From Octopus sinensis (Eukaryota), in the NCBI RefSeq assembly GCF_006345805.1, contig NW_021832992.1:1-59148 (forward strand): a stretch of DNA of 59,148 bases, read 5' to 3'. The notes under the pieces are model-generated. The model had not been told where the DNA came from. It searched no databases and was given only the letters and a program-made list of their open reading frames with translations. The translations under genes were made by a program, and so were the position numbers. Positions within the stretch are counted from its first letter, which is position 1. Each line of letters opens with the position of its first letter. Below, piece by piece: positions 2,385 through 58,855 of the stretch.

Positions 2385-2915
2385 AGTCAAATTGCGATAA
2401 AATAAAATTAATTATTATCGCTGGTATTTCTAGCACAAGCCATATATTATTCATATATCAGTACATTAAGGCGAAATATGTAGAAACACAGAAGCTAGAT
2501 AAATTTAGTGAAATGAAAATAAAAACATTTACTAACTCGGTTCCTCTTAGACTGCAGTTTCGTTCTTTTCAGCAATAAAGATAATTTATTTGCTCAGGGA
2601 GAATTCATCGGTAAGAGCCCTGTTGTTCTGAGATCCTAACTCACTAGAAGCATGTGCTTCTAATGATTTGCTCTCTCTAACTAATCAGATCACTGCGCAG
2701 ACTCAGAACGTCCCGACATAACTAGGGATTTCTGGTATTGTCTAACGCTCAAAATTTATCGAGAATATTGTAAACAAGTCAAATTGCGATAAAATAAAAT
2801 TAATTATTATCGCTGGTATTTCTAGCACAAGCCATATATTATTCATATATCAGTACATTAAGGCGAAATATGTGCTAGAAACACAGAAGCTAGATAAATT
2901 TAGTGAATTTAGTGA
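2382..2915 (-). mobile_element. Retrozyme-like or Penelope-derived unit: ~392-bp monomer plus ~130-bp terminal direct repeat, with hammerhead
   Basis: gtcaaattgcgataaaataaaatt... at 2386 and 2778; hammerhead between the repeats; (TA)n flanks. Confidence 0.7.
2544..2617 (-). ncRNA. Type I hammerhead ribozyme motif (CCGAUGA core variant)
   Basis: Minus strand: CTCTTA-CCGATGA-(long stem II)-GAAAC-TGCA-GTC^-TAAGAG. Confidence 0.8.
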
Positions 2916-3119
2916 ATATATATATATATATATATTTAAAAAAGGAGATGTGAAACACGAGTTGTGATATATAAAAAAGGAAATGAAGAAAATGCTGACA
3001 AAATAATTTAAGTAATTTAATTAGGTGAAAGTTATTTTTACCGGTTGCGCATTTGTTATGCTTATCAAAAGATAGGATTTTTTCCTCTTATCTCTATATA
3101 TATAGAGATTTTTTCTTCT

Positions 3120-3121
3120 TA

Positions 3122-3156
<35 letters not shown>

Positions 3157-3805
3157 GTAATATATATATATATATATATATATGTATATGTATATATATA
3201 TGTATATATATGTATATGTATATTATATATGTATATATATTATATGTATATATATATATATATGTATATGTATATATATATGTATATATATATATATGTA
3301 TATGTATATATATGTTATATATATATATGTATATGTATATATATATAGTATATGTTATATATATATATATATGTATGTATATATATATATATATATATAT
3401 AGGTATGTATATATATGTATATGTTATATATGTATATGTATATATATATAATATATGTATGTATATATATATGTATAATATATATAATGTATGTATATAT
3501 ATATGTATGTATATTATATGTATGTATAATATTATGTATATATATATGTATGTATATATGTATGTATATATTATGTATGTATATATATATGTATGTATAT
3601 ATAATGTATGTATATATATGTATATATATATGTATGTATATATATATATGTATATATATAATAGGTATATATATTATATGTATGTATATATATATGTATG
3701 TATATATATATGTATGTATATAATATATATATATATATATGTGTATATATAATGTATATATATATGTATATATATGTATATATGTTTATATATATATATA
3801 TGGGT
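3120..3805. repeat. (TA)n/(TATG)n microsatellite
   Basis: Direct inspection; source of spurious Y/I/M/C ORFs. Confidence 0.95.
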
Positions 3806-3830
3806 GTGTGTGATTGTGTATAGAAGAATA

Positions 3831-3951
3831 TATTAATAAGAGGAATTCCAACCTTGTCTGATTTTCACGTTTTATTTACAATCTTATAATGATATATTAT
3901 AAGATTGTAAATAAAACGTGAAAATCAGACAAGTTTGAATTCCTATTATTA

Positions 3952-3953: not shown

Positions 3954-3990
<37 letters not shown>

Positions 3991-4024
3991 ATAATTGTTT
4001 AAAACTCGCCAAGAAAAATTTGAA

Positions 4025-4087
4025 CCACCTGATGAATGACTGTGACTGAAAAATTTAAAGACAGCAGGCAGGAAACGATCGTAGTGG
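4025..4087 (+). ncRNA. Minimal type I hammerhead ribozyme motif in a short element (~3992-4210) within (TA)n
   Basis: CCAC-CTGATGA-...-GAAAC-GATC-GTA^-GTGG; the element's 3' end tatgtattggctta...tctctaatttaatata recurs at 11225-11292. Confidence 0.75.
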
Positions 4088-4210
4088 ATATTAATTATAT
4101 CTTTTAATAATTGTTACATATTTAATAATATAAATTAATCATATGTATTGGCTTAAGTCTTTCATGTTTGATTTGCCTAATAGTGGTTTTGTCTCTAATT
4201 TAATATAATA

Positions 4211-6440: not shown

Positions 6441-9400
6441 AACTACTGTCCACGTCCCAGGGTCTCTAGGGCCCATGCCTCCCACACCCTCAGGGTTGGC
6501 ACACTGAAAGGTAGGTCTGGCGAGATAGTCGAGATGCTTGAACGGAGATGTGTGGATATATGTTGCATGCAAGAAATAAGGTGGAGAGGAGGATCTGCTA
6601 GGTTCCTCACAGGCAAGGAACGCAGGTACAAGATTTTCTGGGCAGGGAACACTGACGGTGTTGGTGGCGTGGGTATACTTATTGCTGAGAAATGGGTAGA
6701 TAAAGTAATTGAGGTAATCAGAGTATGTGACAGAATACTTAAGATTAGATTAGTGCTTCATCATAGTTTAGCAATCATTATATCAGCCTATGCTTCTCAG
6801 TCGGGGCTACCCGATGGACAGAAAGACCGATTCTATGACACTCTACTGCAGACTACCTTGTTGACGAACGACAGAGACCTTCTCTTTGTGGCTCGTGACT
6901 TTAATGGTCATGTTGGACGACATGCTGGGGGCTTCCATGGCTATGGTTCCCGCAACGAGGAGGGAACCAGGCTGCTGGAGTTCTGTGATGCAAATAATCT
7001 TATGATTTGCAACACTAACTTCAGGAAATCTACCAGCCACCTAGTCACCTACAGATTGGGCCAACATACCTGCCAAATTGACAACATCCTTGCCAGGCAA
7101 AGGGAGAGATGGCTGCTTATAAATGCCAAAACCTTCCCAGGCGAAGAATGTACCCCACAACATAGACTGGTAGTTAGTGACTTTAGGATCAGGACTAGGA
7201 GGACAACCAGAAGACGACCAACATGGAGAAGAAGGATCTGGAAGCTTAAAGATCCTGCGAATGGACAGAGATTTAGGGACATGCTACTTGAAGCCTTTGA
7301 CGAAGTAGAAGGGGATAGAGTATCACATGGGGTAGAAGGCAACTGGACGTTTCTAAGGGACAACCTGCTGAGAGCCACTGACCAGATCTGTGGCTGGTGC
7401 AAAGTCCCCTCTCGTCCCAAGGTAACGTGGTGGTGGAACAGTGTTGTAGACAGGGCTATTAGAGAAAAGAGACAGACTTGGAAGCACTGGAAGAATGGTG
7501 GTAGCAGGGAATTGTATCAAACTGCCAAAAGAGAAGCTAAGAGACAGGTCTATCTAGCCAGAGGGGAAGCAGATAAGAAAAAATTTGCCAATGTTCTGCG
7601 CCGTGAGGACCAAAGACTGGAGGTGTTTCGCATTGCAAGACAGTGTGTGAGAGAGAATTGTGATGTGGTAGGAGAGAAGTGTGTTCGCATGGAAGATGGT
7701 TCACTTGCGCTAAATGAGGATGCAAAGAGAGAGGTTTGGAGAGGCCACTATGAAAGGTTGCTGAATAAAGAAAATGAATGGGATAAAGAGAGTCTGCCGA
7801 ATGTTGACCCGACAGAGGGACCAGCTATCCGAGTTGATAGTTCCTTGGTGGTTAAGGCAATTAGAAGCATGAAGATAGGGAAACCCCCAGGCCCATCAGG
7901 AATCACTGCAGAGATGCTCAAAATATCTGGTAGTATCGGCTATAGCCTAGTCACCCGTATAGTTAATCAGGTGATACACGAAGGAGTCATACCCAATGAC
8001 TGGTGTAGTCAACTGCTACAAAGGTAAAGGTGACGCCCTAGATACAAATAATTACAGAGGTATCAAGCTGTTGGATCAGGTGATGAAGGTTACGGAGAGG
8101 GTCATAGCCCAACTAATTAGAGAGAGAGTTAGTTTAGATGAGATGCAGTTTGGGTTCATGCCAGGGAAAAGTACCACTGATGCTATATTCCTGGTAAGGC
8201 AGCTGCAGGAGAAATACCTAGCCAAATATAAGCCCCTGTACCTGGCTTTTGTTGACATGGAGAAAGCCTTTGACAGGGTCCCCCGATCCCTTATCTGGTG
8301 GTCAGTGAGGAAACTAGGGATAGATGAATGGTTAGTGAGAGCTGTGCGAGACATGTACAGGGACGCTGCTAGTAAGGTGAGGGTTGGCAACGAGTACAGT
8401 GAAGAATTCTGGGTAGAGGTAGGGGTCCACCAAGGCTCAGTCCTCAGTACCCTCCTATTTATCATAGTCCTCCAGGCAATAACGGAGGAATTCAAGACAG
8501 GATGCCCTTGGGAGCTCCTCTATGCTGATGACCTTGCTCTAATTGCTGAGTCACTGTCAGAACTGGAGGAGAAGTTTCAGGTGTGGAAACAAGGATTAGA
8601 ATCTAAGGGCCTTAGAATCAATCTAGCTAAAACCAAGGTCGTAATCAGTAGGAAGGTAGACAAATCACAAACGCCTTCAGGTAGATGGCCCTGCTCGATC
8701 TGTAGAAAAGGTGTAGGTAGAAACTCTATAAGATGCACCAAGTGTAAGCTATGGACACATGAGAGGTGCAGCAATGTCAAAGGAAGGCTAACTAGGAAGA
8801 TGGTTTTTGTCTGTGGCAGATGCTCAGGAACAATAAACACTGAAAATGCTCTGAGACCAACCTCTGTCACTTTCCAGGGAGAAAAACTAGAAATAGTTGA
8901 TAGCTTCCGTTACCTAGGTGACCAAGTCAGCAGTGGGGGCGGGCGTGCTGAAAGTGTAACTGCTAGAGTAAGAATAGCTTGGGAAAAGTTCAGAGAGCTC
9001 TTACCTCTGCTGGTGACAAAAGGCCTCTCGCTCAGAGTAAAAGGCAGACTGTGTGACGGGTGTGTACGAACAGCCATGCTACATGGAAGTGAAACATGGG
9101 CCGTGACTGCTGAGGATATGCGTAAGCTCGCAAGAAATGAAGCCAGTATGCTCCGATGGATGTGTAATGTCAGTACTCATACTCGACAGAGTGTAAGTAC
9201 CTTGAGAGAAAAGCTGGACCTAAGAAGCATCAGTTGTGGTGTGCAAGAGAGACGTTTGCGCTGGTATGGGCATGTGGCGAGAATGGATGAAGATAGTTGT
9301 GTGAAACAGTGCCACACCCTAGCGGTTGAGGGAACCTGTGGAAGAGGCAGACCCAGGAAAACCTGGGACGAGGTGGTGAAGCACGACCTTCGAACTTTAG

Positions 9401-9477
9401 GTCTCACTGAGGAAATGACTAGAGACCGAGACCTCTGGAAGTATGCTGTGCGCGAGAAGACCCGGCAAGACAAGTGA
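6441..9477 (+). pseudogene. RTE endonuclease-reverse transcriptase ORF, frameshifted at ~8008 by an 11-nt deletion
   Basis: ORFs 6534-8027 and 7996-9477; copy 3 retains cagcatactag at this site. Confidence 0.9.
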
Positions 9478-10139
9478 GACCATAACCCGTTGGTCTTCTA
9501 CATGGGATGTAGCCAGCCCACTTATGCATACCTTCCCTTCTTGGGACACAAAACTCTACTTGTGAAGACCTGTTGAGGCAAGTGAGGATCAGAATCGAAA
9601 TCGATCAATGGAAATTGCAGCTGAGTTACCAGTGCCGGTGGCATGTAAGAGAACCATCCGAATGTGGCCATTGCCAGCGCCGCCCAGACTGGCCTGGTGC
9701 CGGTGGCACGTAAAAAGCACCATCCGTTCGTGGCCATTGCCAGTCTCGCCTGGCCCCCGTGCCGGTGGCACATAAAAAAGCACCATCCATTCGTGGCCGT
9801 TTGCCAGACTCGTCTGGCACCACCATCTGTTCATGGCCATTGCCAGCGCCGCCCCGACTGGCCTCGTGTCGGTGGCACGTAAAAAGCACCATCCATCCGT
9901 GGCCGTTTGCCAGCTCCGTCTGGCCCCTGTGCGGGTGGCACATAAAAAGCACCCACTACACTCACGGTATGGTTGGCGTTAGGAAGGGCATCCAGCCGTA
10001 GAAACACTGCCAGATCAGACTGGGCCTGATGCAGCCTTCTGGCTTCCCAGACCCCAGTTGAACCGTCCAACCCATGCTAGCATGGAAAGCAGACGCTAAA
10101 TGATGAAATGAAATGAAAATATATGAGTTTCTATAAGTT

Positions 10140-11289
10140 AGATTCATGTATATACATGTATTAATAGCATTAATTGTAGTTTTAAATTTCTTATAATTAT
10201 TATTTTAAGTTATATATTGTCTTTTTAAATTGTTATTTGCTAGTTACATTATTCCCATTGATAAATATATTTATAGTATTTATTTGTTACTATATAACTA
10301 CAAATTGATTATTTCTTTAAGTACTTTAAAGATAAGATTTTTGAAAGTTATTATTTAGCCAAAGAGATAAAGATAGTTAATTTACTATAGCGTTCGTTTA
10401 AGATGGTTTGTTTGTATTTTTGAAATTAGCTATTTCATCTTTAAATATGAAAAATTCATTTATTAGGTCTTTATTATATGTGCATATATTTATTTATAGA
10501 GATTAATTAGATCTTAATTATATATTTATATACATATATATATTTTCATTGATAATTTATATATTATTTAAATTTTATATTTTAATAATATGAATAATCA
10601 TTTTTTTTTGTAAAATATTTATGTAAATAGATATTGACTATTACTGATATTAGATTATTGGTGGGTTTCTTACCTTAAAAATTAAAATTAATATTTAACA
10701 TTATAATCATTGTTTTGACATAATCATAATCGTTAAGTTTCTAGTTTGATAATAGAGTTTTTTATAAGAAAATTTATTATATTATTTATTTCTTAAAAAA
10801 ATTGTTTAAATATTTTTGATTATTTATTAAAATATTACAATTAACCTGAAGATTGACTGTAGCCATAACTCGAATTATTAATTGAATTAAAATTATTGTT
10901 ATCCGAATTGGTCACGGGCATGAAACGATCGTGGTGTTTTTACTCTTTATCTTATTAAACTTTTAATGCTTTTTGATAGTTTATAAAAAAATAAATAAAT
11001 AAATAAATATAAAAATATAAAAATATAAAAAATATAAAAATAAAAAAAATATTAATAAAAATAAAATAATAAATAAATAATTAAATAAAATAATAAATAT
11101 ATATATATTTATAATTTTTTAAGTTTAATTATTAATTTAAATAATTTTTAAAATTTTAACTTTAATTTCAATATTTTAATTGGATTTTTATATTTTTTAT
11201 ATATTTTTTAATTAATTTTATTTCTATGTATTGGCTTATGATTTTCACTGTTTGATTTGCCTAGTAGTGGTTTTATCTCTAATTTAATA

Positions 11290-13822: not shown

Positions 13823-13919
13823 ATGATATATATATATATATATATACACACATTTATAAATATATACATGCATATTTACATTTATATATATATACCTTTA
13901 TAAATATATACATACATAA

Positions 13920-15226: not shown

Positions 15227-16507
15227 GTTCTCGTGCTGTTAGCGTTTCGGCGTTTCAGTCGAGTGTATTGGCATTAATGTGGTAACATCTGAAATGTTGT
15301 CATGGTATATGTTTGGCTGATGAAGATAGATCAAGTTTATGGGTGCAGACATATCTTGAAAAATCTGAAACCGGCGCCGGTCCCTCATTATCCTTTCAGA
15401 TGTTCTCCCTGGAGGTAAAACAATTTTTTCTAGTTTGTTGCACTCACGCATTTTTGCTAGTACATACGCGGTGAAGCTATACATTAGCGTCGTATTATTA
15501 CGTTCGCTATTTCCAGTAAATATCGGTACTTCGTTGTGCCATATATTTACTTCTTTATATATATATATATATATATGTAATAGCATGCAAACCTTTGATG
15601 CAACCTTCTCCAATGTAGATCTTCAATGCAGATCTCCGAGGCAACCTTTTCCAATGCATATCTTTGATGCAGCCTTGACTGATAGTACCCCTACGAAGAC
15701 ATTAGGTCTAGATCGGGGTTAGCCGTTGCCTTTCAGAGGCTTCTGAGCCCCCTTTAGCTAGGTTAACTTAGGCTTAGGTTAAGGTTTAGTTGTGATCCGA
15801 ACATAACCTCTTCTGGTACAGAGGATCAGGAGCCCTTTTGGGCTTTCTATTTTCCTTGCTGGAAGGGCTCCCAACCCAGTGGGTTTAGATGGTGGGGGTG
15901 ATGGTTTTGAAAGAGCCAACGTGTGAACCTGATTACCTCTGCTAGTCAACCTCCCAGCACATGCGTTCCCGTCGCAACACTGATTCTGCAAAACTGGGTT
16001 GGGTATGAAAACCAACTTTAAAGTATAAATATCGATTTTTGAATCAGCAATGTTGTGTTCAGTTAAGTCCTATTTGGGGTGAAAAATCAATAAATGGGGT
16101 TTTCCATTCAATGAGGATGAAAAATCAATAAACCGATTCCTTATAGGATTTCTCACTAAAATTGGTTATACCCCATTTTCAACCATAACTTTTACCAATT
16201 TTGATGTATTTTGTTCAAACTTGATGGCGGCGTTACTTAGGACTCATGGGATCTTTGAATGCTTTAAATTCTCCCAAAAAAAAAAAATACAATCGATGAG
16301 TGGAAAAATCGATAAACCGATTCCTTATGGGATTTCCCAATCAAATTGTCTGCAACCCATTTTCAGCCGGACGTTTACCAATTTCAACGGATTTCGCTCA
16401 AATTTGACGTCAGTGTTACTTCGTTGGTTTGAAATAAAGCGCTTGATTAGCTTAATAATCTCACTTAATCTTAGTTAATCCCAGGCAGTGCCGGGCTATA
16501 CTGATAG
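14079..16507 (+). mobile_element. Non-autonomous Helitron with internal tandem repeats
   Basis: 5' A|TCTATAAAAGGCAG; 3' hairpin cccaggcagtgccggg then ctgatag (CTAG-like); ~290-bp repeats at 14350-15110; 15580-16415 matches 29630-30560. Confidence 0.75.
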
Positions 16508-18293: not shown

Positions 18294-18354
18294 GATAACT
18301 GAAGAGATGGTGGCGTGGATTTCCACCTCAGCATCTGAAACTCAGAGTTTTATC
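18294..18354 (+). ncRNA. Type I hammerhead ribozyme motif
   Basis: GATAA-CTGAAGA-GATG...CATC-T-GAAAC-TCAGA-GTT^-TTATC. Confidence 0.78.
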
Positions 18355-18660: not shown

Positions 18661-18797
18661 CTACCTATCTACAGAAAATTCAACTATAAAATAACCATAT
18701 AAACCGTGTTTCGTATATTTATGTATTTAAAGAATAAGGAGAAAAATGGAGAGATAATTAAGAAAATTATTTGTTAATTATAAAATATGACAACATC

Positions 18798-18875
18798 TCT
18801 GACAGCTGTTTCAATTCAGAAATCCTTAGATAATTTATAAAATTAAAATCATTATAAGATGAATCTCTTCAGAGA
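18798..18875 (-). ncRNA. Minimal type I hammerhead ribozyme motif
   Basis: Minus strand: TCT-CTGAAGA-GATTCA...TGAATT-GAAAC-AGCT-GTC^-AGA. Confidence 0.78.
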
Positions 18876-19102
18876 TAGTAAAGACATACCGATTAGAAAT
18901 ACATGTTGAGATAATGGCTATAAACTGTTAACTGATAGCATATATACAAAAAGAGCCAGTTATAGAAGGCCTCAATCCAACATAGGGGGAGAAGGTAGTA
19001 TATATTTTGTGTCTTGAAGGAAGAAACGAAGAGGTTAATATAATATCAAAGGGTACAGAGAAGGAGAAAAGGAAGCAGAAAAATGCAATTATATATAAAT
19101 AT

Positions 19103-31317: not shown

Positions 31318-31521
31318 ATTTTATGAGCATGAATTTTTTTGGTTGGTTGTTGAGAAATTCTGGAGCTTTTTATATTCAACGTAGCTTTGGAGATAACCAA
31401 CTTTACTGGGCAGTATTTACAGAATACGTTCAAACACAGATTGCAAATAGTGATAGACCACTTGAGTTTTTTCCAGAGGGAACTAGAAGTAGAACTGCTA
31501 AATCTTTGTGTCCTAAATATG
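31318..31521 (+). CDS. GNPAT: Internal coding exon of dihydroxyacetone phosphate acyltransferase (glyceronephosphate O-acyltransferase)
   Basis: Polypyrimidine ttttttttcAG acceptor, G|GTAATT donor, phase 1-1, 204 nt; [69 protein letters not shown] has acyltransferase motifs II (GAF.I.R) and III (FFPEGTRSR) plus the GNPAT-like LYWAVF.EY. Confidence 0.9.
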
Positions 31522-40500: not shown

Positions 40501-40870
40501 CGGTAGGTGACTAGGTGAGAGGTGGGTTTCCTGAAGTTGGTATTGCTGACCATAAGGTCATTTGCATTGCAGAACTCCAGCAGCCTGGTTCCCTCCTCAT
40601 TACGAGAGCCAAAACCGTAGCCTCCATGAATGCCATGGAAGCCCCCGACATGCCGTCCAACATGTCCATTGAAATCACCTGCCACGAAGAGAAGGTCACT
40701 GTCATTTGTCAACGAGGTAGTCTGCAATAGGGTGTCATAGAATTGGTCTTTTTGTCCTTCCGGTAGCCCTGGTTGAGGGGCATATGCCGAGATGATGGTA
40801 GCTGACCTATGGTGAAGGATTAATCTAATTTTAAGTACTCTGTCACTTACTCTGACTACCTCGATTACCT
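37573..40870 (-). mobile_element. 5'-truncated RTE LINE (copy 3)
   Basis: 656-aa ORF 38382-40352 highly similar to copy 1; endonuclease pieces to ~40870; (CAT)n tail at 37573-37592. Confidence 0.95.
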
Positions 40871-42350: not shown

Positions 42351-44165
42351 TCAATAGCTAGACTTAATAGTAAAAACATTAAGTTAGCCAGGAGTAGAAT
42401 GAATAGTAACAACATGGATAGTAATAATAATTGTAATAACAGCATCAACAATAGAAATAACAATAATAATAATAATAATAATATTAATAAAAGTAATAAT
42501 AATGGTAATAATAGGGATACTAAAAATAATACTAAAAATGATGATAGCAATAATAACAACATCGATATAAATATAAACAATGATAATAGCAATACCAGTA
42601 ATGTAGGTAATATAGGTATAAGTATGGTAGATGGGAATGATAGTGAAAATGGATTAATAAATAGTAACCCTATTTTGGATATCAATATGACCACTAAAAA
42701 TGAAAATAATACTTATAATATTACTAATATTTTAAATAACAGTAATGTGAGAGAACTATCCTTAAATAATTCCAAATCTGAATATTATCTCCCCAGTTGT
42801 AATTGTAGGATTAGATCAAATTGTCCAGTATCTGGTCGTTGTTCGGTCCAAAACGTAGTTTATAAATGCACTATAATAACTTCTAACGGTAGCTTTTTTT
42901 ATCTCGGATGTTCTGTGGATTTTAAATGACGTCTTAACAACCATTTCTCCTATTTTCGATTAAAACACAAGGCAGGTTGCACTACACTATCTAGCAAAAT
43001 TTGGGAACTTAAAACAAATAATATAGGATACAACCTAAAATGGGATATAGTTAGGAGGGCAAAACCTTATAGAAATAGTAGAGTAGGCTGTCAACTCTGT
43101 CCTATGGAAACCTATGAAATTTTAAAGTATCGAAGTAACAAAAATCTACTGAATAATCGTCTAGAGTTAGGATTATCTTGCATACATTCCACAATTAGAA
43201 CTTTTAAATACTTTAAGTAGAAATTTAAGTTTTCCTACATTTCAAACTTTAATAATATGAGATATACTATACTAACCTTTAATTTACTTTCATAGTCGAC
43301 TAGATTAACTTCACTGTAATCTTGAATTTGTATCCTTCCCCAAATCTATTCTAATTTTAATATTCAATACTATTCCCCCAGTTATAAAATATGACACCTG
43401 CTATAAATTAGATGATAGGTTTGTTCCCCTACCCTTTGTAAAAGAATTTAATTGACCTCTGGACATTGACCTAGATTTTTTCTCACCACATAAAAATAAC
43501 TGGCTTTTTGTTCTAGTGACAACCTGAATTCCCTTCATGTATTCTAAATTCTTCATTTTTTCTTGAACTAACTTAAACCCCTTTTACAGTATTCTTTCAC
43601 ATCCCCTTACCTAAATTCCTACTAAAAAAATTCTGATGGCTCTCAGTTGCAAGTAGGGTTTTGGTCAGTTAGTAGCTGACCTACTACCTCATATGTTCCT
43701 AAGAATTTAATGTTCTTTCTACACTGACCTAAATTTTTTGTCACCACATAGATAAATTGACCCTTTGTTCTAGTGACAACCTGTTCTTCTTTTACATATC
43801 CTGAATTTTCCAGCTCTTTTCTTCAACTAATTTGAATTCTTTACCTGCCCATACCCCAATCCTTATCTTTAAAGAAATTTTCTTACAGCAGTCAGTTGTA
43901 AACAAGGTTTTGGTCAGTTGGCATCTGAACTACAAGACCTCATGTTCCTAAGATTCATATCTACATCTTTATCTGTATATATACCTTCCCTAAGATGTTA
44001 TTAATTGATTTGAAAACTTTATATTATTGGAAAACCTATATAAAATTAGCTGGAGATTACTCGGCATCCTAAATCTGCTGTAATATTTACAGCTTTTAAT
44101 AAAATGTTGTAGTATGAAACAATTGTACTAAATTACTGGATTCATTCTTGTTGCTTATTTTTGAG
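42350..44165 (+). mobile_element. Penelope-like (Naiad-type) 3' part: Asn-rich linker, GIY-YIG, UTR with ~258-bp duplication, hammerhead variant
   Basis: CNCRIRSNCPVSGRCSVQNVVYKC..FYLG..FK*RLNNH..TTLSSKIWELK..CQLCPME..LLNNR..CIH. Confidence 0.85.
44046..44131 (+). ncRNA. Hammerhead motif variant (CUGGAGA core, possibly inactive)
   Basis: TTAG-CTGGAGA-tTAC...GTAt-GAAAC-AATT-GTA^-CTAA. Confidence 0.6.
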
Positions 44166-44940: not shown

Positions 44941-45082
44941 AAAGCAATTAAGATTCAAGTACCTTCCAATGAATTTACTTGAATGTGGTACTTAACTTAG
45001 ATGCACCAGAAAAACTATATGGTGTTATCCATACAGTAATGTGGGGTGATTATAAACGAGAAAGAAGCAACAATGGATTGGT

Positions 45083-45173
45083 TTTTAGTACAATTGTTTC
45101 ATACAAAGACAGGCTTTATTACAAGTTGCAAAAATTGCAGCAGATAAAAGTGTCCCGTACTCATCAGCTAAAA
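45083..45173 (-). ncRNA. Canonical minimal type I hammerhead ribozyme
   Basis: TTTTAG-CTGATGA-GTACGGGACA...TGTCTTTGTAT-GAAAC-AATT-GTA^-CTAAAA. Confidence 0.85.
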
Positions 45174-47297
45174 TACATTTGAGTTCTCTAGACATCTTAG
45201 TGGGTGAAGTTATTCATGAAATATTGGAGATAGTTCCATTAGAGGCAGATATAGGTGTAAACAGTTTTCCAAAGTTCCTTAATGATGATGCACAGTCTTA
45301 TCACAAATTTTAAAAAACTTATTAGTTTCGAAGAGAAGATGATCAATCCATAGTGTAGATTTAAATTTCCAGAGATATGAGGAGGATGATGCACAGACTT
45401 ATCACAGGTTTTAAAGACTTATTAGCTTCACAGAAAAGGTGAATAATCATAGTGAAGATTTACATTTCCAGTGGTAGATGAGGGATTTCATACTCACAGA
45501 CGATGTATTTAACCATTATTAATCCACAATCATTTCATGCTATATGATAAGGTAATTTGCCATGTTATTGCTCTCTGTGCAAAACTGCTATGTTGAGAAT
45601 TCTAAAGGCTGAAGGAATTTATTTGTGGGGCAAAGAAAAGAAAATAAGATAAAAGAAAAAGGAAAGAGACAAGGAAAAAAGAGAAAAAGAAAAAGGAGAA
45701 GAAGAAGAAATAAGGAAAAGAAAGAAAAAGAAAAAGAAAAAAGAAAAAGAAGAAAAGGGAAAAGAAAAAAGGAAAAGGTGGAATGGGGAGAAAAGAAAAG
45801 GCGCCTATATAGAGTATACTTAGCGGAGGGGTTTTTTAAGTGACCAAATACAGAAGAATTTGTAGATAGCTTAGTTAGCTTGAATCTTTAAGAATCTTTA
45901 AGAATTCAGGAACTATGAGGAAAGAAAATTATTATTATTATTATTTTTTTTTTTTTTTGACCAGTACACAGCTATTTACTATCAACCTGACACAGATGAA
46001 AGCAGATATGAATCTAAAGAGAATTTAAAGAGATAAACAAGGTCAGGGGTAGAGGGGTCAATAGCTATGCTAAAAGGAAATACAATAAGAGAAAGGATCT
46101 AAGTGCAACCCTTAACCAGAGGTCATTTAAATTATTTATTTATTTATTTATTCATGTTACTGTCTTAAAAATAACATTAAGGGACTACTGGTCAAAACCT
46201 AGAATTTAATTAACAAGGTGTGATGGAATTGTCTATTTTATTGAAGTTTATCATACTACTTTCAAGGGAGTTTCTTCGCTTAATTAATTCTGTGATAGAA
46301 TTGTTAAGCTTTAGTAACTTAATTTATTAAAGTAGTGTTACCTAAACTAGATTAAGTTCCAAAATTTAAAATTTAAAATTTAAAATTAAGATTTAAGAGT
46401 TAAATAAACACTAAAAATTAAGATTTAAGAATTAAGAATTAGATAAACTTTCAATTAAGCAATGTACGAATACTATTTTAATTTCCCAATGTTTAAAATC
46501 AGGTGTAGTTACAAAGAAAAAGATAAGTATAGTGTGAGAAATCGCAGATATCTACTTAAAAAATAATGTTATACTATTAAAGACCCGGTTATATTTATCT
46601 ACCTATCTTGTTACGATTGTTCTATACATTTATTCACTTAAAATATTTAGGGTCTTCAATTTAGCGTGGACACAAACTTCATATGGTTATTTAACAAGTT
46701 TCTATTTTTCTATGCTTAGAATTTCATAGGTCTCCATTGAGCAGAGTTGGCAACCAACCCTGCTATTTTATACGGTATTGCTCTCCTAACTATTTCCCAA
46801 TTAGATTATAATTCTTGTTATTATTTTGAGTTCCCAGATTTTACTTGAAAGTGTGGTGGTACCAGCTTTATGACGTAATCCAAAAGATGAGATGTGGTTT
46901 CTAACCCTTTATGAAAATTTATTGTGCACCCAATGTAAAAAAATTTGTTATTCTCAGTAGATATGGTACATTTATAGATTACGTTATTTTCCCCGCAAAG
47001 ACCGGGTGCCGGGCATCTTGACTTAATTCTACACTTACACGCAGGAGGAACAACTTCAGAAGTTGGATTATTCATGGGTAGATGTCTTATGTTCTTATTA
47101 TGATTATCATGAGTATAATTATCCTTATTATTATTATTATTTTTATAGTTGGTGCTGTTATCTAAAGCATTGTTATTATTTATTGATCCTGTTGCTCCAT
47201 CTTTTAGGTCTAAAGTCCTACCATGATTATTTACATTATTAGTAATGTTACTATTATTGTTAGTATTATTATCAAACTGTATATTGTTACTATAGAT

Positions 47298-47930
47298 CAT
47301 CATCATCATCATCATCATTTAACGTCCGCTTTCCATGCTAGCATGGGTTGGACGGTTCAACTGGGGTCTGGGGAGCCCGAAAGCTGCACCAGTCCAGTCA
47401 GATCTGGCAGTGTTTTCTACAGCTGGATGCCCTTCCTAACGCCAAACCACTCCGAGAGTGTAGTGGGTGATTTATGTGCCACCGACACAGGTGCCAGACG
47501 AGGCTGGCAAACGACCACGCTCGATGGTGTTTTTTATGTGCCACCGACACAGGTGCCAGACGAGGCTGGCAGACGGCCACGCTCGATGGTGTTTTTTATG
47601 TGCCACCGACACAGGTGCCAGACGAGGCTGGCAGACGGCCACGCTCGGATGGTGTTTTTATGTGCCACGACACAGGTGCCAGACGAGGCTGGCAGACGGC
47701 CACGCTCGGATGGTGTTTTTATGTGCCACCGACACAGGTGCCAGATGAGGCTGGCAAACGGCCACGATCGGATGGTGCTTGTTACGTGCCCACAGCACGG
47801 AGGCCAGTCGATGCGGTACTGGCTACGGCCATGTTCGGATGGTTTTCTTATGTGCCACGTGCCACCGGCACTGGTACCACAAAGATACAAATTCCATTGA
47901 TGTTCATCTATTTTGATTTGTTTTGATTTT
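47298..47930 (-). mobile_element. RTE 3' UTR fragment with an expanded ~61-bp tandem array
   Basis: (CAT)n tail; near-identical to 344-850; about 7 units of gtgccaccgacacaggtgccagacgaggctggc. Confidence 0.92.
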
Positions 47931-49029
47931 TTTATCATTGATATTTTCCTTCTCCGCGTTTTCTCTATTAGCCTTACTTCTATTATTAACATTTTTACTT
48001 CTATTAGTATCGGTATTATTACTACTCTTATTACTGCTAATATTATTATTAGTCGTTTTGTGGTTACTGATTCCATCCGTGTTTTGATAGTTACTATTGT
48101 TGCGTTTATTGTTGTTAGTATTGTTATAATTGTTATTGGTATTCATGTTGTTTTATTATTTTTATTTTCATCTTTCCTGGCTAGTTTAATGTTGTTATTA
48201 TTAATCTTAGCTATTAAAGTGGACATATTTTGGGAGGGTTGAATAAGAAATTCTAACTGTTTTCTAGAAATAATTCTATGATATTCTATGAGAGATTGGG
48301 AAATTTTTTCTAGAATTACTTTTTTGAATTTGCTCTGTATATCCGATTGAATCGCACAGTTGAAGGAATATTCAGCCTACTATATCTTTTTTATTTTTAT
48401 TTCTATTAAATTTCCTTGATTAGAATCAGGGTTCGTAAATTATTATTATTATTCATCTTATCAAAGTCATTGTACTTACTACTATAATTGTGTGCATTTT
48501 GATTTATCTAATTCCATTTTATCCGAATTACCTATGCTTTGGTTTTTTACTTCTATTTGAATTATTGGGCTCTGTACGCTAGATTTGTGGTTACCGTGAA
48601 TCTATTTCTACTTCTATTTCGGGCCTGGTTTATATTGCTGCTTATATGATTAATGATAACTTCTTATTAGGAATATGTAAGTTCCCCTTATCTATGAATG
48701 TAATTTTTGGTTGTATCCTGCCTTAGTAAACGCTGTATTATAATGCTCAGAATGGGAGTTAAATATATCCTTATTTGAAGATAATTTTGAAATTCTTAAT
48801 GAATATTTCTGGCTAAAGATTCAATATATTTGGTGGATGGTTGGATAATTGTTTTTCGTATCTCATGATGATTTCGCCTTCTTTTTCTAAATGGGTAATG
48901 CAGCTTGGAGTTAAGGTCTAACGTAATATCTAGGAAATTAACTATTTTGTGGCCAGGTTCATACGTTATGTTGAGGTTAAATCCTTAAAGAACTTATTAA
49001 TTTATTTAAGAAATAATGGTGTAATTTGC

Positions 49030-52129: not shown

Positions 52130-53221
52130 CATCATATAATAAGGGCTAAAGAGGGTTATTCTAAAGCCAAATACACTGTTTTATCCACTTATAATCCGCT
52201 TGTTACAGGAAAATGAAACTGAAAACGGGCAACTAACCTTTAGAAATTAAATTTCGTTATCTCTATATTGAATCAATTTCGGACTTAATCTTATAAAAAA
52301 AAGATATATTCTTCTTCAGTAGAACTTTCGATGGGATATAAATAAAATACTCACGTATGATCATGGAAAAAGCACAAGCTAAAAACATAACTACACTTGA
52401 GTACATCACTTATATCTAAAAATAAAAATTCTTTGGTCAGCCTCAGAAAACAACGTCCAGACCTTTCGCCGCTTACACATTGTAATGGTTACAGTCCTCC
52501 TGTAGCAAGCATCGAGTTTACTACTAAGCAATATAGGATGAAGTCCCTTACTCTACAGCAAAGGAATTCATCAGGAAGCGTGGGCAGTATATTTAAAAAA
52601 ACCGTTACGGTTGCAATATACATCATATAATTAAGGGCTAAAGGGTTATTCTAAAGCCAAATACACTGTTTTATCCACTTATAATCCGCTTGTTACAGGA
52701 AAATTGAAACTGAAAACGGGCAACTAACCTTTAGAAAATTTAAATTTCGTTATCTCTATATTGAATCAATTTCGGACTTAATCTTATAAAAAAAAGATAT
52801 ATTCCTTCTTCAGTAGAACTTTCGATGGGATATAAATAAAATACTCACGTATGATCATGGAAAAAGCACAAGCAAAAACATAACTACACTTGAGTACATC
52901 ACTTATATCTAAAAATAAAAATTCTTTGGTCAGCCTCAGAAAACAACGTCCAGACTTTCGCCGCTACACATTGTAATGGTTACCAGTCCTCCTGTAGCAA
53001 GCATCGAGTTACTACTAAGCAATATAGGATGAAGTCCCTTACTCTACAGCAAAGGAATCATCAGGAAGCGTGGGCAGTATATTTAAAAAAAAGTTACGGG
53101 TTGCAATATACATCATATAATTAAGGGCTAAAGAGGGTTATTCTAAAGCCAAATACACTGTTTTATCCACTTATAATCCGCTTGTTACAGGAAAATTGAA
53201 ACTGAAAACGGGCAACTAACT
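52130..53221. repeat. ~490-bp tandem repeat, 2.2 copies, inside (TA)n
   Basis: catcatataat(t)aagggctaaag at 52130, 52621, 53111; copies near-identical. Confidence 0.92.
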
Positions 53222-53349: not shown

Positions 53350-54286
53350 TATATATTATATATATATGTGTGTATATATATATATATGGTTATATATTAT
53401 AGAATTATATATGTGTATATATATATTATATATATATTATGGTATATATATATATAATATATATATATGATATGTATATATATATGTATATGTATATGAT
53501 ATATATATGTATGTATATGTTATATATATATGTATATATATATGTATATGTATATATAATATATGTATATGTATATTATATGTATATGTATATATATATG
53601 TATATGTAATATATAAGTATATGTATATAATATGTATATGTATATAGTATATGTATGTATATATGTATATGTATATATATATGTATATGTTATATATATA
53701 TGAATGTATATGTTATAATATATATATCTATGGATATATAATATATATGTATATGTATATGTATATATATGTATATGTATATATATATTATGTATATGTA
53801 TATGTATATGTATATATATGTATATGTATATATATGTATATGTATATGTATATATATATGTATATGTATAGTATATATATGTATATGTATTTATATGTAT
53901 ATATATGTATATGTTATATATATTATATGTATATGATATTATAATGTATATGTATATGTATATGTATATATATATGTATATGTATATGTATATATATATA
54001 TATGTATATGTATATGTATATATATATGTATATGTATATGTATATATAATGTATATGTATATGTATATATATGTATATGTATATGTATATATATATATGT
54101 AGAGTATATGTAATTATATATATATATATATATAATATATGTATATATTATATAGGTATATATATATATTGTATATGTATATATATATATGTATATGTAT
54201 ATATATATATGTATATGTATATATATATATGTATATGTATATATATATGTATATATATATATATATGTATATGTATGTATATATAT
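53222..54286. repeat. (TA)n/(TATATG)n microsatellite
   Basis: Direct inspection. Confidence 0.95.
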
Positions 54287-57200
54287 GTGAGAAACCTGCC
54301 CGGGAGGTAAACCCAAGTGCGGGTGCTCCTACCGGCACCAAAAGCTATGGACATGGAGATGAAAGAACCAAAAAAGGAGGAAAAACTAAAACTCAGGCAA
54401 AACCAAAAAACGAAACAGCCAAGGATAGAAGCAAACCATATCCATATACCAAAAAGGATGGAAACAAGCAGCGCACACGGGTATGTAGGTTCTACCTGAG
54501 AGGTGCCTGCCGGCATGGAGAGGAAGGTGCAGGCTGCTGTTTTGCACATCCGGGACCCTGCCGCAGAAACCAACCACCGAAAGGAAAAGGGATGGACCAC
54601 GCACCACCTGCCCCAAAACGGAGGTACGCAGATGTGGTGCGTGCCACAAACCGCAACGTGTTGTGAAAGGGCAGCTGCTGAGCAAGAATCTTTTTTGTGG
54701 CAACACAAAAGATTGTACAGCAGCTAACCTGGCTCCATCAAACTCAAGCTCGCAGATGGGACTACCCACAGTTCACGAGACCACCACAGCAAATAGACCC
54801 AAGGTGGACACCACCGGCAACAGCATACACCTCACCTCGATGCTCTTACTGAACATCAGAGGACTACTAACACACAAGTAACAGGACAAAAGTCCCGTTC
54901 TTGAGAGACTTTGTTGCATGCAGTCAAGCTTATGCATAGCACTTAAGGAAACACACCTGAAACCGGACATAGCGATTGCGGAATTACACATACACAGTAT
55001 GTTGTACTGGACGACGAACAGAAAGAAAAGAAAGGAGTCATGGAGGATGTTGCTATTACATCCGTGAGGACTCACACCCCAGGTCCTTTTGTCATACTCA
55101 AACTTGGTGTGTGACACTCTAATTGTACATGTAAGGCAACTTGGTGTAGTTGTGTGTGCTACATATCGCCCTCCAGATGCCCCAAGCCATATGGGCAAGT
55201 TTGAAGACTGCCTTATAAAAATAGAAGAAGTTCTAGTCACACTAGAACAGCACATAAGTGTACTTCTCATGGGAGACTTCAACCTACCCAATGTCAGATG
55301 GCCCGAGGGCCTTCTCTCCAGGAATGACACAATGTGAACGGGGGACAGGCGAGGTCCCTCCTGAACATCATCAACACCTGTACAAGGAGCAAGTAATACT
55401 CCAACCAGCCAGGGCGGAGGTAACACATTGGACCTCTGCTTCACAAATAATATGGATCTCATCCATAATGTGAAAGTGACACCGACACTACTCTCGGATC
55501 ACAACATGGTAGAGCTGACTATGTACGGGCCAAAGGAAAGCAAGGACATGCAGCCTACAAGAAGTCTCTCAGAATCTTTCCAGCTTAACTTCAATAGGCA
55601 AACTGGAAACAAATTGAGAAAAGAGATCCTTAAACAAAACTGGCCTGATGTCTCTCCTCGCCGGACATCGACATGAAACTTCAACAATTCATGTCTGTAA
55701 TGCAAGCCATATGCTACAAATGTGTCCCAGAGACAAAGGCCACTGTACACAAGAACAAAATCCCCAGACAGAGGAAAATTTTAATGAGATGGCATACAAA
55801 AATTTCAAATCGCCCAAACAAACAAATTGAAAGCAGTGAAAAGTCCCACCTGAAAATAAAACTGTTGGAAATTGAAAAATGTCTACAACTCTCCCATGAA
55901 AAGGAAAGAGCAGACAAAGAAGCCTGGGCTATCGACAACATAAAAACTAACCCCAGAGCTTTCTACAGGTATGCCAAAGAAACAGCTACGGTGCACGGTA
56001 GGATAGGGCCACTCCTTGAAAAGGATGGCACACTCACAGGAAAACCAATGAGGGTAAGTGAAATACTGATGAGCAATTCAAGAGTGTTTTCACTCCACCC
56101 CTGGGCATTTCCAAAAGCAATCAACTGATTTCTTTACCACTGCAGATATAAAATCAGAGGCGGCGACGATAAATTACATCGATATAAAGGAAGACGATGT
56201 AATAAAGGCTATGATGAAATGAAAAACAGACTCAGCTATTCCCGATGGATTCCGGCAATCCTCCTAAAAGTATGTAAGAGAGTCCTAGCAAGACCACTGC
56301 AGTTTCCTCTTTCAGAGCTTCCTTGCAGCTGGCAAACTTCCAAGAAAACTGAAGGAAGGTAAAATATGCCCTATTCATAAAGGAGGTAGCAGAGCGGAGG
56401 CCAAGAACTACAGACCTATCTCTCTCACCTCACACATCAGCAAGGTCATGGAACGAATAGTTAGAAGGAAACTAATCACCTTCCTTGAAGAAAATGACTT
56501 GCTGCCTGACACCCAACATGGTTTCCGACCAGGAAGAAGCTGCTTCACTCAGCTCCTACAACACTATGACTGGGTGCTGAAACGACTGCTCAACCACTCA
56601 AATGTGGAAGTCATATATCTCGACTTTGCAAAGGCCTTTGATAAAGTCGATCATGGAATGATATGTCACAAACTGCGTGATCTTGGCATAGTTGGAAAAT
56701 TGGGAGAATGGCTTCATGACTTTCTGAAGAATAGAAGTCAGGTGATAGCAGCCACTTCCATTAACACGCAAATAATGAGCGGTGTTCCGTAGGGCACTGT
56801 TTTGGGACCACTACTGTTCATAATGGCCCTCTCAGACATGCCCTCAGCCACGCAGAGAGCCACGATCACAAGTTATGCAGATGATACAAAAGTTTCACAC
56901 GCAATACAGAACCCTGAGGACACTAAGCACCTGCAATGTGAGCTGGACGAAATATACAAGTGGGCTGAAAAGAATAGCATGCAGTTCAATGCTGAAAAGT
57001 TTCAAGCTTTATACTATCAGCATGAAAACTTAATGCAATACCCAATGAATACACTGGACCCGGATGGGAGGGATTGCAATCCCAGAGGCACAATCAGTGC
57101 GTGACCGGGTATTCACATGAGTGATGACGCGACCTTCATGTACATGTTGCTAAACTGCAATGAAATGTAGACGGCTGGCTGGATGGATTCTTAGAACCTT

Positions 57201-57880
57201 TAGACAAGAGAACAAGAAACCATGATGGTCCTCTGGAAGACACTTGTCCTAGCCACTTTGACTATTGCTCTCAGCTATGGTCACCATCCAGTGTCAAGTT
57301 GATCACAGAACTTGAGGCGTTCCAACGAAGCTACACGAAGAAGATAGCCTCTGTGAAGCATATGAGCTACTGGGAAAGACTCAAGAGATTAAAGCTCTAT
57401 TCCCTGGAGCGTAGGCGAGAAAGATATGCCATAATATACATCTGGAGATCCTGGAAGGACTTGTCCCAAACTTTGGCATCGAGAGTCACACAAATGCCAG
57501 AACGGGCGCCACTGCGTAGTACCAAGGACTCCAAATTTGCCATCAAGATGTAGGACAAGATACTGTGATAGCCTGGGCTTCAGAGGCCCACAGCTCTTCA
57601 ATATCCTCCCGAAGAAGGCTGAGGGACCTGCATGGTGTAGATGCGGATTGTCTTTAAAGTAGGACTGGATTTCTTTCCTGTCAGGTGTCCGGATGAACCA
57701 ACTTCACGACAGGAGGTGCAGATGAGGGCAGCTGCATCGAACTCTCTCATGCAGCAGATGGCGTTTGCTAAAAAGCATCCGTGAGGTAAAATCGTGTAGC
57801 CAAACCAAATGGCGGTGCCCCAGCATGGCCACAGCTCATTAGCTGAAACTGGAAAAATCAAAATCAAAATCAAAATCAAA
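54287..57880 (+). mobile_element. CR1-group LINE, near full length but disrupted; ORF1 remnant with CCCH finger
   Basis: CRFYLRGACRHGEEGAGCCFAH; LNIRGL, ETHL, YRPP, MGDFNLP, SDHN; NYRPISLTS, QHGFRPGRSC, YLDFAKAFDKV, GVP*G, YADD, LERRRER; (AAAATC)n tail. Confidence 0.9.
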
Positions 57881-57893
57881 TTATATGTATGTA

Positions 57894-57949
<56 letters not shown>

Positions 57950-57950
<1 letters not shown>

Positions 57951-58855
57951 GAGAAAGAAGCAACAAGAATGGATTAGTTTTTAGTACAATTGTTTCATAC
58001 AAAGACAGGCTTTATTAAAAGTTGCAAAAATTGCAGCCAGCAGATAAAAGTGTCCCGTACTCATCAGCTAAAATACATATGCATTTTCCAAACATCTTAG
58101 TGGGTGAGGCTATACTCATGAAGTATTGGAGATAATTTCATTACAAGCAGATTTAGGTTGTAAACTGATTTCCGAAGTTCCTTAATGATGATGCACAGTC
58201 TTATCACAGGTTTTTAAAAAAAGCTTATTAGGTTCACAGAGAAGGTGAATTAAGCCGTAGTGTAGATGTAAATTTCCAGAGATATGAGGAGGAATTTCAT
58301 ACTCACTGACGATGAATTTATCCATGGTTAATCCACAATGAGGTGGGTATCATTTCATGCTATATGATAAGGTATTTGCCACATTACTGTTCAATTCACA
58401 AGACTGTTAAGTTATGACTTCTAAAGGCTGAAGGAATTTTTTGTGGAGCAAAGAAAAGAAAAGAAAGGAAAGAGAAGAAAAGAGACAAGGAAGGGGAAAA
58501 AGAAAGAAAAAGGAAAAAGAAAAAGAAAAAAGAAAGAAGAAAACAGAAAAAAGGAAAAGAAAAAGAAAAAAGAAAGAAGGGGAGAAGAAAAGAAAAATGA
58601 AAAAGAAGAAAGAAAGAGGAAAAAGAAAAAGAAAAAGGGGAAAGAAAAAAGAAAAAGGGAAAGAAGGGAGAAAAGAAAAAACGCCCACATAGAGTGTACT
58701 GTGACAATTTTGAGGGAGGGGAGTTCTAAAGTGACATACTATACAGAAGAATTTGTAGACTGCCTGGCTGGCTTGAATTTGCAAGAATCCAGGAACTATA
58801 AGGAGAATATTAATTTTGACCAGTAAAACAGCTATTTATTGTCAACTTTATACAT
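57950..58855 (-). mobile_element. Second copy of the Penelope 3' terminal region seen at 45055-46000
   Basis: Collinear similarity including the A/G-rich tract and hammerhead. Confidence 0.82.
57979..58073 (-). ncRNA. Canonical minimal type I hammerhead ribozyme
   Basis: Same core and stems as 45083-45173. Confidence 0.85.

What the first reader, a model, noticed from the sequence alone, without database searches (positions are those of the whole stretch)
2544..57995. Stem III loops are different palindromic tetramers, implying dimer-dependent, family-specific cleavage
Seen: the segment between GAAAC and GUH is TGCA (2544), GATC (4025, 10926), AGCT (18798) or AATT (44120, 45092, 57988). These are four different sequences, all self-complementary. 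Established: minimal hammerheads with very short stem III cleave as dimers in tandem transcripts. Inference: solo intronic copies are safe for the host, and the palindrome may act as a family pairing code.
Basis: partly seen in the sequence, partly recalled or inferred. Interest (0 to 1): 0.7.

Follow-up and report, generated by a model that had tools for sequence, protein, structure and literature searches.

The report
Dimer hammerheads of octopus Penelope elements
The seven motifs are real hammerhead (self-cutting RNA) sequences left in the introns of an octopus lipid gene by Penelope-type jumping genes and related repeats; their palindromic loops are the published sign that such RNAs likely cut in pairs, and genome-wide counts show the loops are kept self-pairing but are shared between families, so they are not a unique family code.

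Summary
All seven palindromic loops exist, each inside a type I hammerhead fold. They come from four families; three copies are damaged, and one has GUG, not GUH. They lie in introns of octopus GNPAT, four of seven on the antisense strand. E, F and G belong to Hydra-clade Penelope-like elements (PLEs); A belongs to a ~400-nt tandem repeat. Genome-wide the motif has 36,750 matches (reversed control 1,715); 75 of the first 100 loops are palindromes and 13 more self-pair through G-U. Palindromic loop III and dimer cleavage are published (2011, 2014, 2021). The family-code idea is only partly true: four loops carry 53% of matches, unrelated families share loops, and one lineage carries GATC, GATT and AATT. 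Stem I, also exchanged in a dimer, discriminates better. Not found in print: G-U self-pairing loops outnumber their equally mutable mismatched twins (GATT 2,060 vs AATC 309; ATGT 2,421 vs ACAT 196). This suggests selection on the dimer helix and a wobble route between palindromes. No cleavage was tested. The scan noted the same idea earlier in another genome (e1-9578834).

The parts
2544..2617 (-). Hammerhead A, loop TGCA (2553-2556), stem I 6 bp, core damaged (CCGAUGA); single full motif in a partial copy of a ~400-nt tandem repeat; antisense to GNPAT
   Evidence: 2375-2907 matches the tandem arrays L240-L243 at 87-88%; arrays with ~398-nt spacing listed
4023..4089 (+). Hammerhead B, loop GATC (4077-4080), intact core, GUA triplet, stem I 4 bp; the only intact sense-strand copy among the seven
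   Evidence: relatives L088, L049, L047
10840..10939 (+). Hammerhead C, loop GATC (10927-10930), same lineage as B; triplet GUG and only 2 contiguous stem I pairs, probably dead
18795..18878 (-). Hammerhead D, loop AGCT (18804-18807), intact core, GUC triplet, stem I 3 contiguous bp; antisense
   Evidence: relative L056 at 82%
42636..43202 (+). GIY-YIG endonuclease fragment of a Hydra-clade PLE (CxCx5C at 42798; CxxC-E-N-CxH at 43089) upstream of hammerhead E
   Evidence: tblastn; motifs
44044..44133 (+). Hammerhead E, loop AATT (44121-44124), core damaged (CUGGAGA); 3' end of the PLE above; predicted cross-compatible with F/G in helix III and helix I
45083..45173 (-). Hammerhead F, loop AATT (45092-45095), intact core, stem I 6 bp; young family with at least 36 identical genomic copies; antisense
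45174..48981 (-). 5'-truncated, interrupted Hydra-clade PLE body: RT C-terminal part, Asn-rich linker, CxCx5C (47039), GIY-YIG endonuclease (to ~46650), 3' region ending in hammerhead F
57979..58073 (-). Hammerhead G, loop AATT (57988-57991), intact core, same lineage as F (87% over 45051-45386); ends 35 nt before a (TA)n run; antisense
31318..31521 (+). Internal exon of host GNPAT (dihydroxyacetone phosphate acyltransferase), aa ~184-252; sets the sense strand and makes the rest of the window intronic
   Evidence: Pfam PF01553; 100% to Octopus proteins P0002/P0003; AG/GT ends; spliced contigs in 4 of 4 runs; other exons on C11 and C10986
2194..2244 (+).
15312..15387 (+). Further hammerhead-like motif with a 10-nt palindromic helix III segment
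18294..18354 (+). Further hammerhead-like motif with an odd-centred 7-nt helix III segment, stem I 5 bp
52261..52818 (-). Two hammerheads in true tandem (494 nt apart) with an odd-centred 9-nt helix III segment; antisense to GNPAT

Best explanation
These are type I hammerhead sequences at the 3' ends of Hydra-clade Penelope-like retroelements and related tandem repeats, and they likely cleave as double hammerheads, in which two copies pair through the palindrome in helix III and swap their stem I strands. Shown: the fold, the PLE context for E/F/G, the genome-wide palindrome enrichment and the wobble-over-mismatch asymmetry. Predicted: one C-G pair plus a tetraloop is unstable as a hairpin (+1.9 to +2.9 kcal/mol) and stable as a two-copy helix (-6 to -14). 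Inferred: pairing happens mainly in cis, between tandem pLTR or repeat copies on the source transcript. Inferred: selection keeps the loop self-pairing, Watson-Crick or G-U, without caring which palindrome. Loops therefore drift between palindromes through G-U forms (GATC-GATT-AATT, ACGT-ATGT-ATAT), which pair with both neighbours. Incompatibility between families is then a by-product of drift in stem I and helix III together, not a selected code. The window's copies are truncated, mostly antisense or damaged relics in GNPAT introns.
For: Palindromic loops: 75 of first 100 matches, plus 13 wobble-palindromic; GATC 4,964, AATT 4,965, ACGT+ATAT 9,696 of 36,750. Wobble vs mismatch: GATT 2,060 vs AATC 309; ATGT 2,421 vs ACAT 196. 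24 of the first 30 GATT copies fall in two expanded lineages, while sporadic GATT (6) and AATC (11) are similar over the same 42 Mb. No sense-strand A>G or C>T excess among singleton changes (2.6 vs 3.0 and 3.7 vs 4.9 per 1,000). Energies. Hydra motifs CxCx5C, CxxC-E-N-CxH, RWK, DKT; GIY-YIG look-alikes in the Atlas at 0.95; endonuclease upstream on the same strand in 19 locus hits. Stem I: 24 clusters, 24 different 5-mers, self-pairing 4.4 of 5, cross-pairing 2.45, 2% of cross pairs perfect. Published dimer model and assays: PMC4209133, PMC7229834.
Against: No cleavage assay on these sequences. Only 9 of the first 100 copies have a same-strand neighbour within the fetched stretches; 33 are inverted pairs and 58 solo, so few genomic copies can use the cis route. 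No full-length element with two direct pLTRs was found in my loci. Counts are of copies, not independent events: I saw two expanded GATT lineages and about three ATGT lineages (the latter by eye). A third comparison shows no clear asymmetry (GGCT 3 vs AGCC 2 among 100 listed). Energies are for isolated helices and ignore loop I-loop II contacts that could rescue a monomer. PMC11167929 (passages) reports that hammerhead cleavage is not needed for in vitro insertion of a lizard PLE. Pfam and PDB searches gave no significant hit for the PLE proteins.
Confidence: 0.82

Rival explanations
1. Selected family pairing code: loops diverge so that co-expressed families cannot pair and cut each other in trans, as the HIV-1 DIS palindrome sorts partner genomes.
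For: The four window families are predicted to be mutually incompatible in helix III and helix I. Loops are nearly fixed within young subfamilies (19 of 20 ACGT, 6 of 6 TGCA). Related families with compatible stem I but incompatible loops exist (ACGT vs ATAT; GATC vs AATT). A palindromic partner code is real in HIV-1 (PMC3187697, one passage).
Against: 15 multi-copy clusters in the first-100 sample use 6 Watson-Crick palindromes plus GATT; a uniform draw gives 9.9 (P=0.02 for 7 or fewer), so there is clumping, not spreading, though kinship explains clumping. AATT occurs in 5 stem I lineages, GATC and ATAT in 3 each. Wobble subfamilies pair with both neighbours (GATT/GATC -7.9, GATT/AATT -6.1). 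E and F, about 67% identical in endonuclease DNA, are cross-compatible. None of 17 inverted pairs of the F lineage joins two different stem II subfamilies, so there is no trace of two-source pairing.
Confidence: 0.1
2. The palindrome is kept for RNA-RNA pairing itself (holding two template RNAs or two ends together during reverse transcription), with cleavage secondary or dispensable.
For: Same selection signature expected. A third of copies are inverted pairs, mostly with 3' ends pointing outward. Cleavage is not needed for in vitro insertion of PAc, and its protein is predicted dimeric (PMC11167929). F copies keep sequence beyond the cut site.
Against: The full catalytic core and an NUH triplet are kept across tens of thousands of copies and many families. 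Arms of inverted pairs share private variants, which fits one source.
Confidence: 0.15
3. The wobble excess comes from strand-biased mutation (A-to-I editing or C deamination on the RNA), not from selection; palindromes persist only by descent.
For: Both wobble forms are reachable by sense-strand A>G or C>T. Heavy A-to-I editing in octopus is recalled, not from a call.
Against: Singleton spectrum in 10 families shows A>G 30 vs T>C 44 and C>T 26 vs G>A 29. Sporadic GATT and AATC are similar in density. Many different palindromes across lineages need compensatory change.
Confidence: 0.05
4. The motifs cleave well as monomers because the long stem II and tertiary contacts stabilise the weak helix III; the palindrome is a leftover.
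For: Invertebrate retrozyme hammerheads with a 2-bp helix III cleave efficiently as monomers (PMC7229834). Stem II here is long (36-69 nt).
Against: Helix III here has one pair plus a palindromic tetraloop, the design of axolotl HHR_Amex1 (6% cleavage in one hour as a monomer). G-U pairing across a tetraloop cannot help a hairpin, yet is favoured.
Confidence: 0.08

Closest known systems
Canonical type I hammerheads of Hydra-clade PLEs (Craig et al. 2021, PMC8557442; read: passages, section 11, supplementary Files S1 and S2)
   Same: C-terminal GIY-YIG with CxCx5C, CxxC and CxH, RWK and DKT motifs, (TA)n targets, inverted 5'-truncated copies, hammerhead near the 3' end. File S2 lists family-variable, self-complementary stem III/loop III, including Hydra-1_oBim of Octopus bimaculoides, and several Hydra families share one sequence.
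   Different: The listed motifs mostly have 2-3 extra pairs with 1-3-nt centres and short stem II; these families have one C-G pair, a 4-nt palindrome and a 30-69-nt stem II. No genome-wide loop tally in what I read.
Metazoan type I and PLE hammerheads with small palindromic helix III (Cervera and De la Pena 2014, PMC4209133; read: parts 1-2 of 4)
   Same: States that helix III has 1-2 bp capped by a 2-4-nt palindromic loop, that monomers cleave poorly, that tandem copies form an active dimer, that most genomic copies are single, and that families vary widely within a genome.
   Different: Their min-HHR has no loop 3; no octopus in the parts read; no wobble or family-code analysis in those parts.
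Repeat-type hammerheads in Perreault et al. 2011, Fig. S8 (PMC3088659; read: passages and the text of Fig. S8, layout garbled)
   Same: Tabulates different palindromic loop III sequences, two each for Schistosoma and Aedes, as a sign of dimeric folding.
   Different: A handful of sequences; no counts.
Axolotl HHR_Amex1 non-LTR retrozyme (PMC7229834; read: passages) and retrozymes as non-autonomous PLE derivatives (bioRxiv 10.64898/2026.07.22.740005; read: part 1 of 5, passages, section 13)
   Same: One base pair capped by a palindromic tetraloop, poor as monomer and efficient as dimer; 170-400-nt tandem units like window family A.
   Different: Amphibian; canonical short stem II.
HIV-1 dimerization initiation signal (PMC3187697; read: one passage)
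   Different: Kissing loop without catalysis, shown to act in trans; nothing here shows trans pairing.

Membership tests
Type I hammerhead ribozyme | Core CUGANGA ... GAAA and NUH triplet | tested here: met
   Intact in B, D, F, G; one change each in A (U4C), E (A6G), C (G17)
Type I hammerhead ribozyme | Open helix I flanking the motif, with compensatory variation | tested here: met
   2-6 contiguous pairs in window copies; 24 clusters self-pair 4.4 of 5 vs 2.45 crossed
Type I hammerhead ribozyme | Helix II, usually closed by G10.1-C11.1 | tested here: inconclusive
   Long imperfect hairpins fold, but the closing pair is G-U in D/F/G, A-G in B, U-U in C/E and A-C in A
Type I hammerhead ribozyme | Match to an Rfam hammerhead model | tested here: not met
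   No hammerhead family among 114 matches at E<=1; long stem II and short helix III are the likely reason (inference)
Type I hammerhead ribozyme | Self-cleavage after H17 | not testable with these tools
   Needs a bench assay; only contigs were offered as RNA data
Double-hammerhead (dimer-dependent) class | Helix III of 1-2 bp, unstable as a hairpin | tested here: met
   +1.9 to +2.9 kcal/mol for 16 loops
Double-hammerhead (dimer-dependent) class | Self-complementary loop III under constraint | tested here: met
   75 of 100 palindromic, 88 with G-U; wobble over mismatch 6.7x and 12x
Double-hammerhead (dimer-dependent) class | Second copy on the same transcript | tested here: inconclusive
   9 of 100 in tandem, family A arrays of four; none of the seven window copies has a close compatible partner on its strand, apart from B/C 6.8 kb apart and F/G 12.9 kb apart
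Double-hammerhead (dimer-dependent) class | Dimer cleaves faster than monomer | not testable with these tools
   Shown for other species in PMC4209133 and PMC7229834
Hydra-clade Penelope-like element | RT followed by C-terminal GIY-YIG endonuclease | tested here: met
   L100, L082, window 48981-46650; Atlas GIY-YIG clusters at 0.95; Pfam silent
Hydra-clade Penelope-like element | CxCx5C linker, CxxC and CxH around E and N, RWK and DKT | tested here: met
   CxCx5C and CxxC..CxH in window elements of E and F; RWK and DKT in L090 of the F lineage (against section 11). Not shown for families A, B/C, D
Hydra-clade Penelope-like element | 5' truncation, inverted copies, (TA)n targets | tested here: met
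   Variable upstream extents; 33 of 100 in inverted pairs; E and G end 35-38 nt before (TA)n
Hydra-clade Penelope-like element | Placement in an RT phylogeny | not tested
   No RT tree built
Non-LTR retrozyme (family A) | Non-coding tandem units of 170-400 nt, each with a type I hammerhead | tested here: met
   ~398-403-nt arrays; no long coding frame in L241 or L080
Non-LTR retrozyme (family A) | Expressed as linear and circular RNA | not tested

The most novel reading that the evidence does not exclude
Helix III and helix I together form a partner-selection signal that works in trans, like the HIV-1 DIS. It would decide which PLE and retrozyme RNAs pair, cut and are mobilised together in a genome with dozens of families. 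G-U wobble subfamilies would be the stepping stones by which a lineage leaves one pairing group for another, a visible route to 'speciation' of retroelements, and intronic solo copies could be cut by transcripts of their own group.
Probability: 0.1. Interest if true: 0.65.

Novelty: new member of a known kind. Interest (0 to 1): 0.3.

Why it matters
The core claim is published, so the finding itself is ordinary. The useful by-product is genomic: what PLE hammerheads do is still called unclear (PMC8557442), and cleavage was dispensable in one in vitro system (PMC11167929). The excess of G-U self-pairing loops over equally mutable mismatched loops suggests that the two-copy helix matters for element multiplication in the animal. 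It also supplies a natural mutant series (GAUC, GAUU, AAUU, AAUC on one stem I) for a direct test.

Tried and rejected
Rfam scan: no hammerhead hit. Pfam and PDB on PLE frames: nothing significant; Hydra membership rests on motifs. Lunse et al. 2017 (dimer cleavage of PLE hammerheads) is not held; I saw only its title in a reference list. It may already contain loop-swap, wobble or heterodimer data. One supplement of PMC4209133 could not be searched and the bioRxiv supplements are closed. Run search for family F: no RNA holder listed, contigs only, so ends at the cut site could not be examined; a broad look for splicing across the middle of the window was not obtained, only the exon region. 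Tree of 85 RATY-loop copies: 14 changes among GATC/GATT/AATT, but 5' truncation gave long branches and some changes are single-copy decay, so I use it only as a sketch. The compatibility table included dead AATC types, which inflate helix III compatibility; I use only its lineage lists. A first substitution spectrum was too small and was repeated. Mixed-source inverted pairs were sought and not found. MAFFT alignment of the seven motifs misplaces cores and was not used. A candidate at 17801-17893 lacks stem I and was rejected. Searches for the wobble or code idea in print found no paper stating it.
Full report
Observation. The seven tetramers are present and palindromic. Each follows GAAAC and precedes GT, and each has a CUGANGA-like core 36-69 nt upstream and flanking strands that can form helix I. 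Of 13 GAAAC-NNNN-GTN sites in the window, 8 have a near core and 7 of those are palindromic, against 0.11 in shuffles. The seven form four families: A; B with C; D; E with F and G. At least five more hammerhead-like motifs in the window have helix III segments of other lengths. Rfam does not detect any of them.

Host context. A Pfam scan of 110 short frames outside the main repeats found one host exon. It is identical to octopus GNPAT proteins, has AG/GT ends at 31318-31521 and is spliced to the flanking GNPAT exons in contigs of 4 of 4 runs laid (3 studies; RNA status is a guess by the tool). The other exons lie on C11 and C10986, so the window, the whole of contig C9463, is intron on both sides, sense strand +, provided the contig is assembled correctly. 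B, C and E are sense; A, D, F and G are antisense. Only B is both sense and intact.

What carries the motifs. F has at least 36 identical copies among 44 scored matches (1,076 candidates). It ends a truncated element with RT, an Asn-rich linker and a GIY-YIG endonuclease; E ends another. The CxCx5C linker and CxxC/CxH motifs are in the window; RWK and DKT are in L090 of the F lineage. These are the marks of the Hydra clade in PMC8557442 section 11. In 19 locus hits an endonuclease fragment lies upstream on the same strand of a hammerhead, for ACGT, ATAT, ATGT, GATC, GATT and AATT loops among others. A belongs to ~400-nt non-coding tandem arrays of retrozyme type. For B/C and D I found relatives but no linked coding region.

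Genome-wide tally. The pattern CTGANGA-N30-60-GAAAC-NNNN-GTH has 36,750 matches against 1,715 for its reversed control; it excludes longer stem II (C, G) and other helix III lengths. I fetched all of the first 100 listed matches (C1, 0-6 Mb). Of these, 75 are Watson-Crick palindromes, 13 self-pair with G-U, 11 have one mismatch and 1 none (95% interval 65-83%; copies are not independent). Whole counts: GATC 4,964, AATT 4,965, GATT 2,060, AATC 309; ACGT plus ATAT 9,696 by subtraction, ATGT 2,421, ACAT 196; NGCN 4,784, of whose 100 listed 94 are palindromes by eye. Four palindromes thus carry 53% of matches.

Mechanism. Nearest-neighbour energies put the monomer hairpin at +1.9 to +2.9 kcal/mol and the two-copy helix at -6.4 (AATT) to -14.1 (CGCG). 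GATT self-pairs at -5.8, ATGT at -6.0 and AATC at +2.0. GATT and AATC are both one transition from GATC and from AATT, and CpG decay makes them at equal rates on the two strands (established knowledge). Sporadic copies are indeed similar (6 GATT, 11 AATC in the first 42 Mb), but 24 of the first 30 GATT copies belong to two expanded lineages. Among the 30 AATC loci the only identical twins are two local duplications. Singleton changes in 10 families show no sense-strand A>G or C>T excess. A G-U pair across a tetraloop cannot stabilise a hairpin, so the asymmetry points to selection on the two-copy helix (inference). Single steps are visible inside one insertion, for example GATT and AATT arms in L140. 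Against: few independent lineages, and GGCT vs AGCC is 3 vs 2.

The code. In a double hammerhead the strand after the cut site pairs with the partner's stem I, so partners must match in helix I as well (geometry of the published model, PMC4209133 Fig. 1 legend and my inference). The window's four families fail both tests with each other, while E and F/G pass both. Across 254 copies in my loci (partly chosen by loop), 24 multi-copy clusters have 24 different stem I 5-mers, and only 2% of cross pairs are perfect. Loops are far less specific: AATT in 5 stem I lineages, GATC and ATAT in 3 each, and the F lineage alone has AATT, GATT and GATC. Families clump on few loops. None of 17 F-lineage inverted pairs mixes stem II subfamilies. 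So specificity exists but looks like a by-product; nothing shows it is selected or used in trans.

Safety of solo copies. 58 of 100 copies are solo and 33 in inverted pairs, within the 5-10 kb fetched, so most cannot dimerise in cis. Axolotl HHR_Amex1, of the same design, gives 6% cleavage in an hour as a monomer: low, not zero. The only close tandem pair in the window is antisense, which fits but is one case. A 2026 preprint reports retrozymes under-represented in Xenopus introns. An orientation test needs a gene annotation.

What is known. PMC4209133 (parts 1-2 of 4) states the palindromic loop, the dimer and its regulatory reading. PMC3088659 Fig. S8 lists different palindromes, two within one species. 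PMC8557442 File S2 tabulates family-variable helix III in Hydra PLEs, including an octopus family. Reviews repeat it (PMC6765202 and PMC6466107, passages). Lunse et al. 2017 could not be read. Five searches found no paper on the wobble asymmetry or on a loop code.

Verdict. Real motifs of a known kind in a known clade; dimer reading likely and published; family code partly true and probably unselected. Interest 0.3, mostly for the wobble asymmetry and the ready-made mutant series.

Noticed in passing
window 2194-2244 (+); L063, L080, L005, L002: Repeated hammerhead family with a 12-nt stem II and a 14-nt helix III segment (3-bp stem plus an 8-nt loop with central CTAG). It might fold as a monomer and lies in sense in the GNPAT intron with an intact core.
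   Followed up: partly
window 52261-52818 (-): Two hammerheads 494 nt apart in a 97%-identical tandem, with an odd-centred palindrome that cannot close as a hairpin; the only close dimer-capable pair in the window, antisense to the host gene.
   Followed up: partly
window 18294-18354 (+) and 15312-15387 (+): Hammerhead-like motifs with 7-nt odd-centred and 10-nt palindromic helix III segments; other loci show 7-, 8- and 10-nt segments too.
   Followed up: partly
G000 C11:53276971-53335259, C9463, C10986: GNPAT is split over three contigs in this assembly; the window contig holds one 204-nt exon within about 59 kb of intron. Protein P0003 has a C-terminus unlike P0002/P0004 and probably reads into a retroelement.
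   Followed up: partly
window 19555-19648 (+): Open stretch with a pyrimidine-rich AG before and GT after, exon-like but not matching GNPAT; seen by eye.
   Followed up: no
window 21603-22058 (-), 22377-22628 (-), 26667-27071 (-), 27341-27754 (+): Further GIY-YIG-like PLE endonuclease fragments without a listed hammerhead.
   Followed up: partly
window 6441-9477 (+), 11757-13875 (-), 38382-40868 (-), 54136-57553 (+): Three LINE copies with endonuclease and RT (a PHD-like finger hit in the first), and another LINE with a CCCH-finger-like first frame.
   Followed up: no
G000 C1 inverted pairs, e.g. L088, L090, L042: Inverted same-family pairs almost always point their 3' ends outward (17 vs 2 links), with spacers from about 0.1 to 9 kb, and arms often share private variants.
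   Followed up: partly
window 509-712, 9632-9818, 37741-37864, 47471-47790: A dispersed repeat family with 62-66-nt tandem subunits, one copy inserted into the F element's linker region.
   Followed up: no
many families: The canonical G10.1-C11.1 pair is often replaced family-wide by G-U, A-U, U-U or A-G.
   Followed up: no
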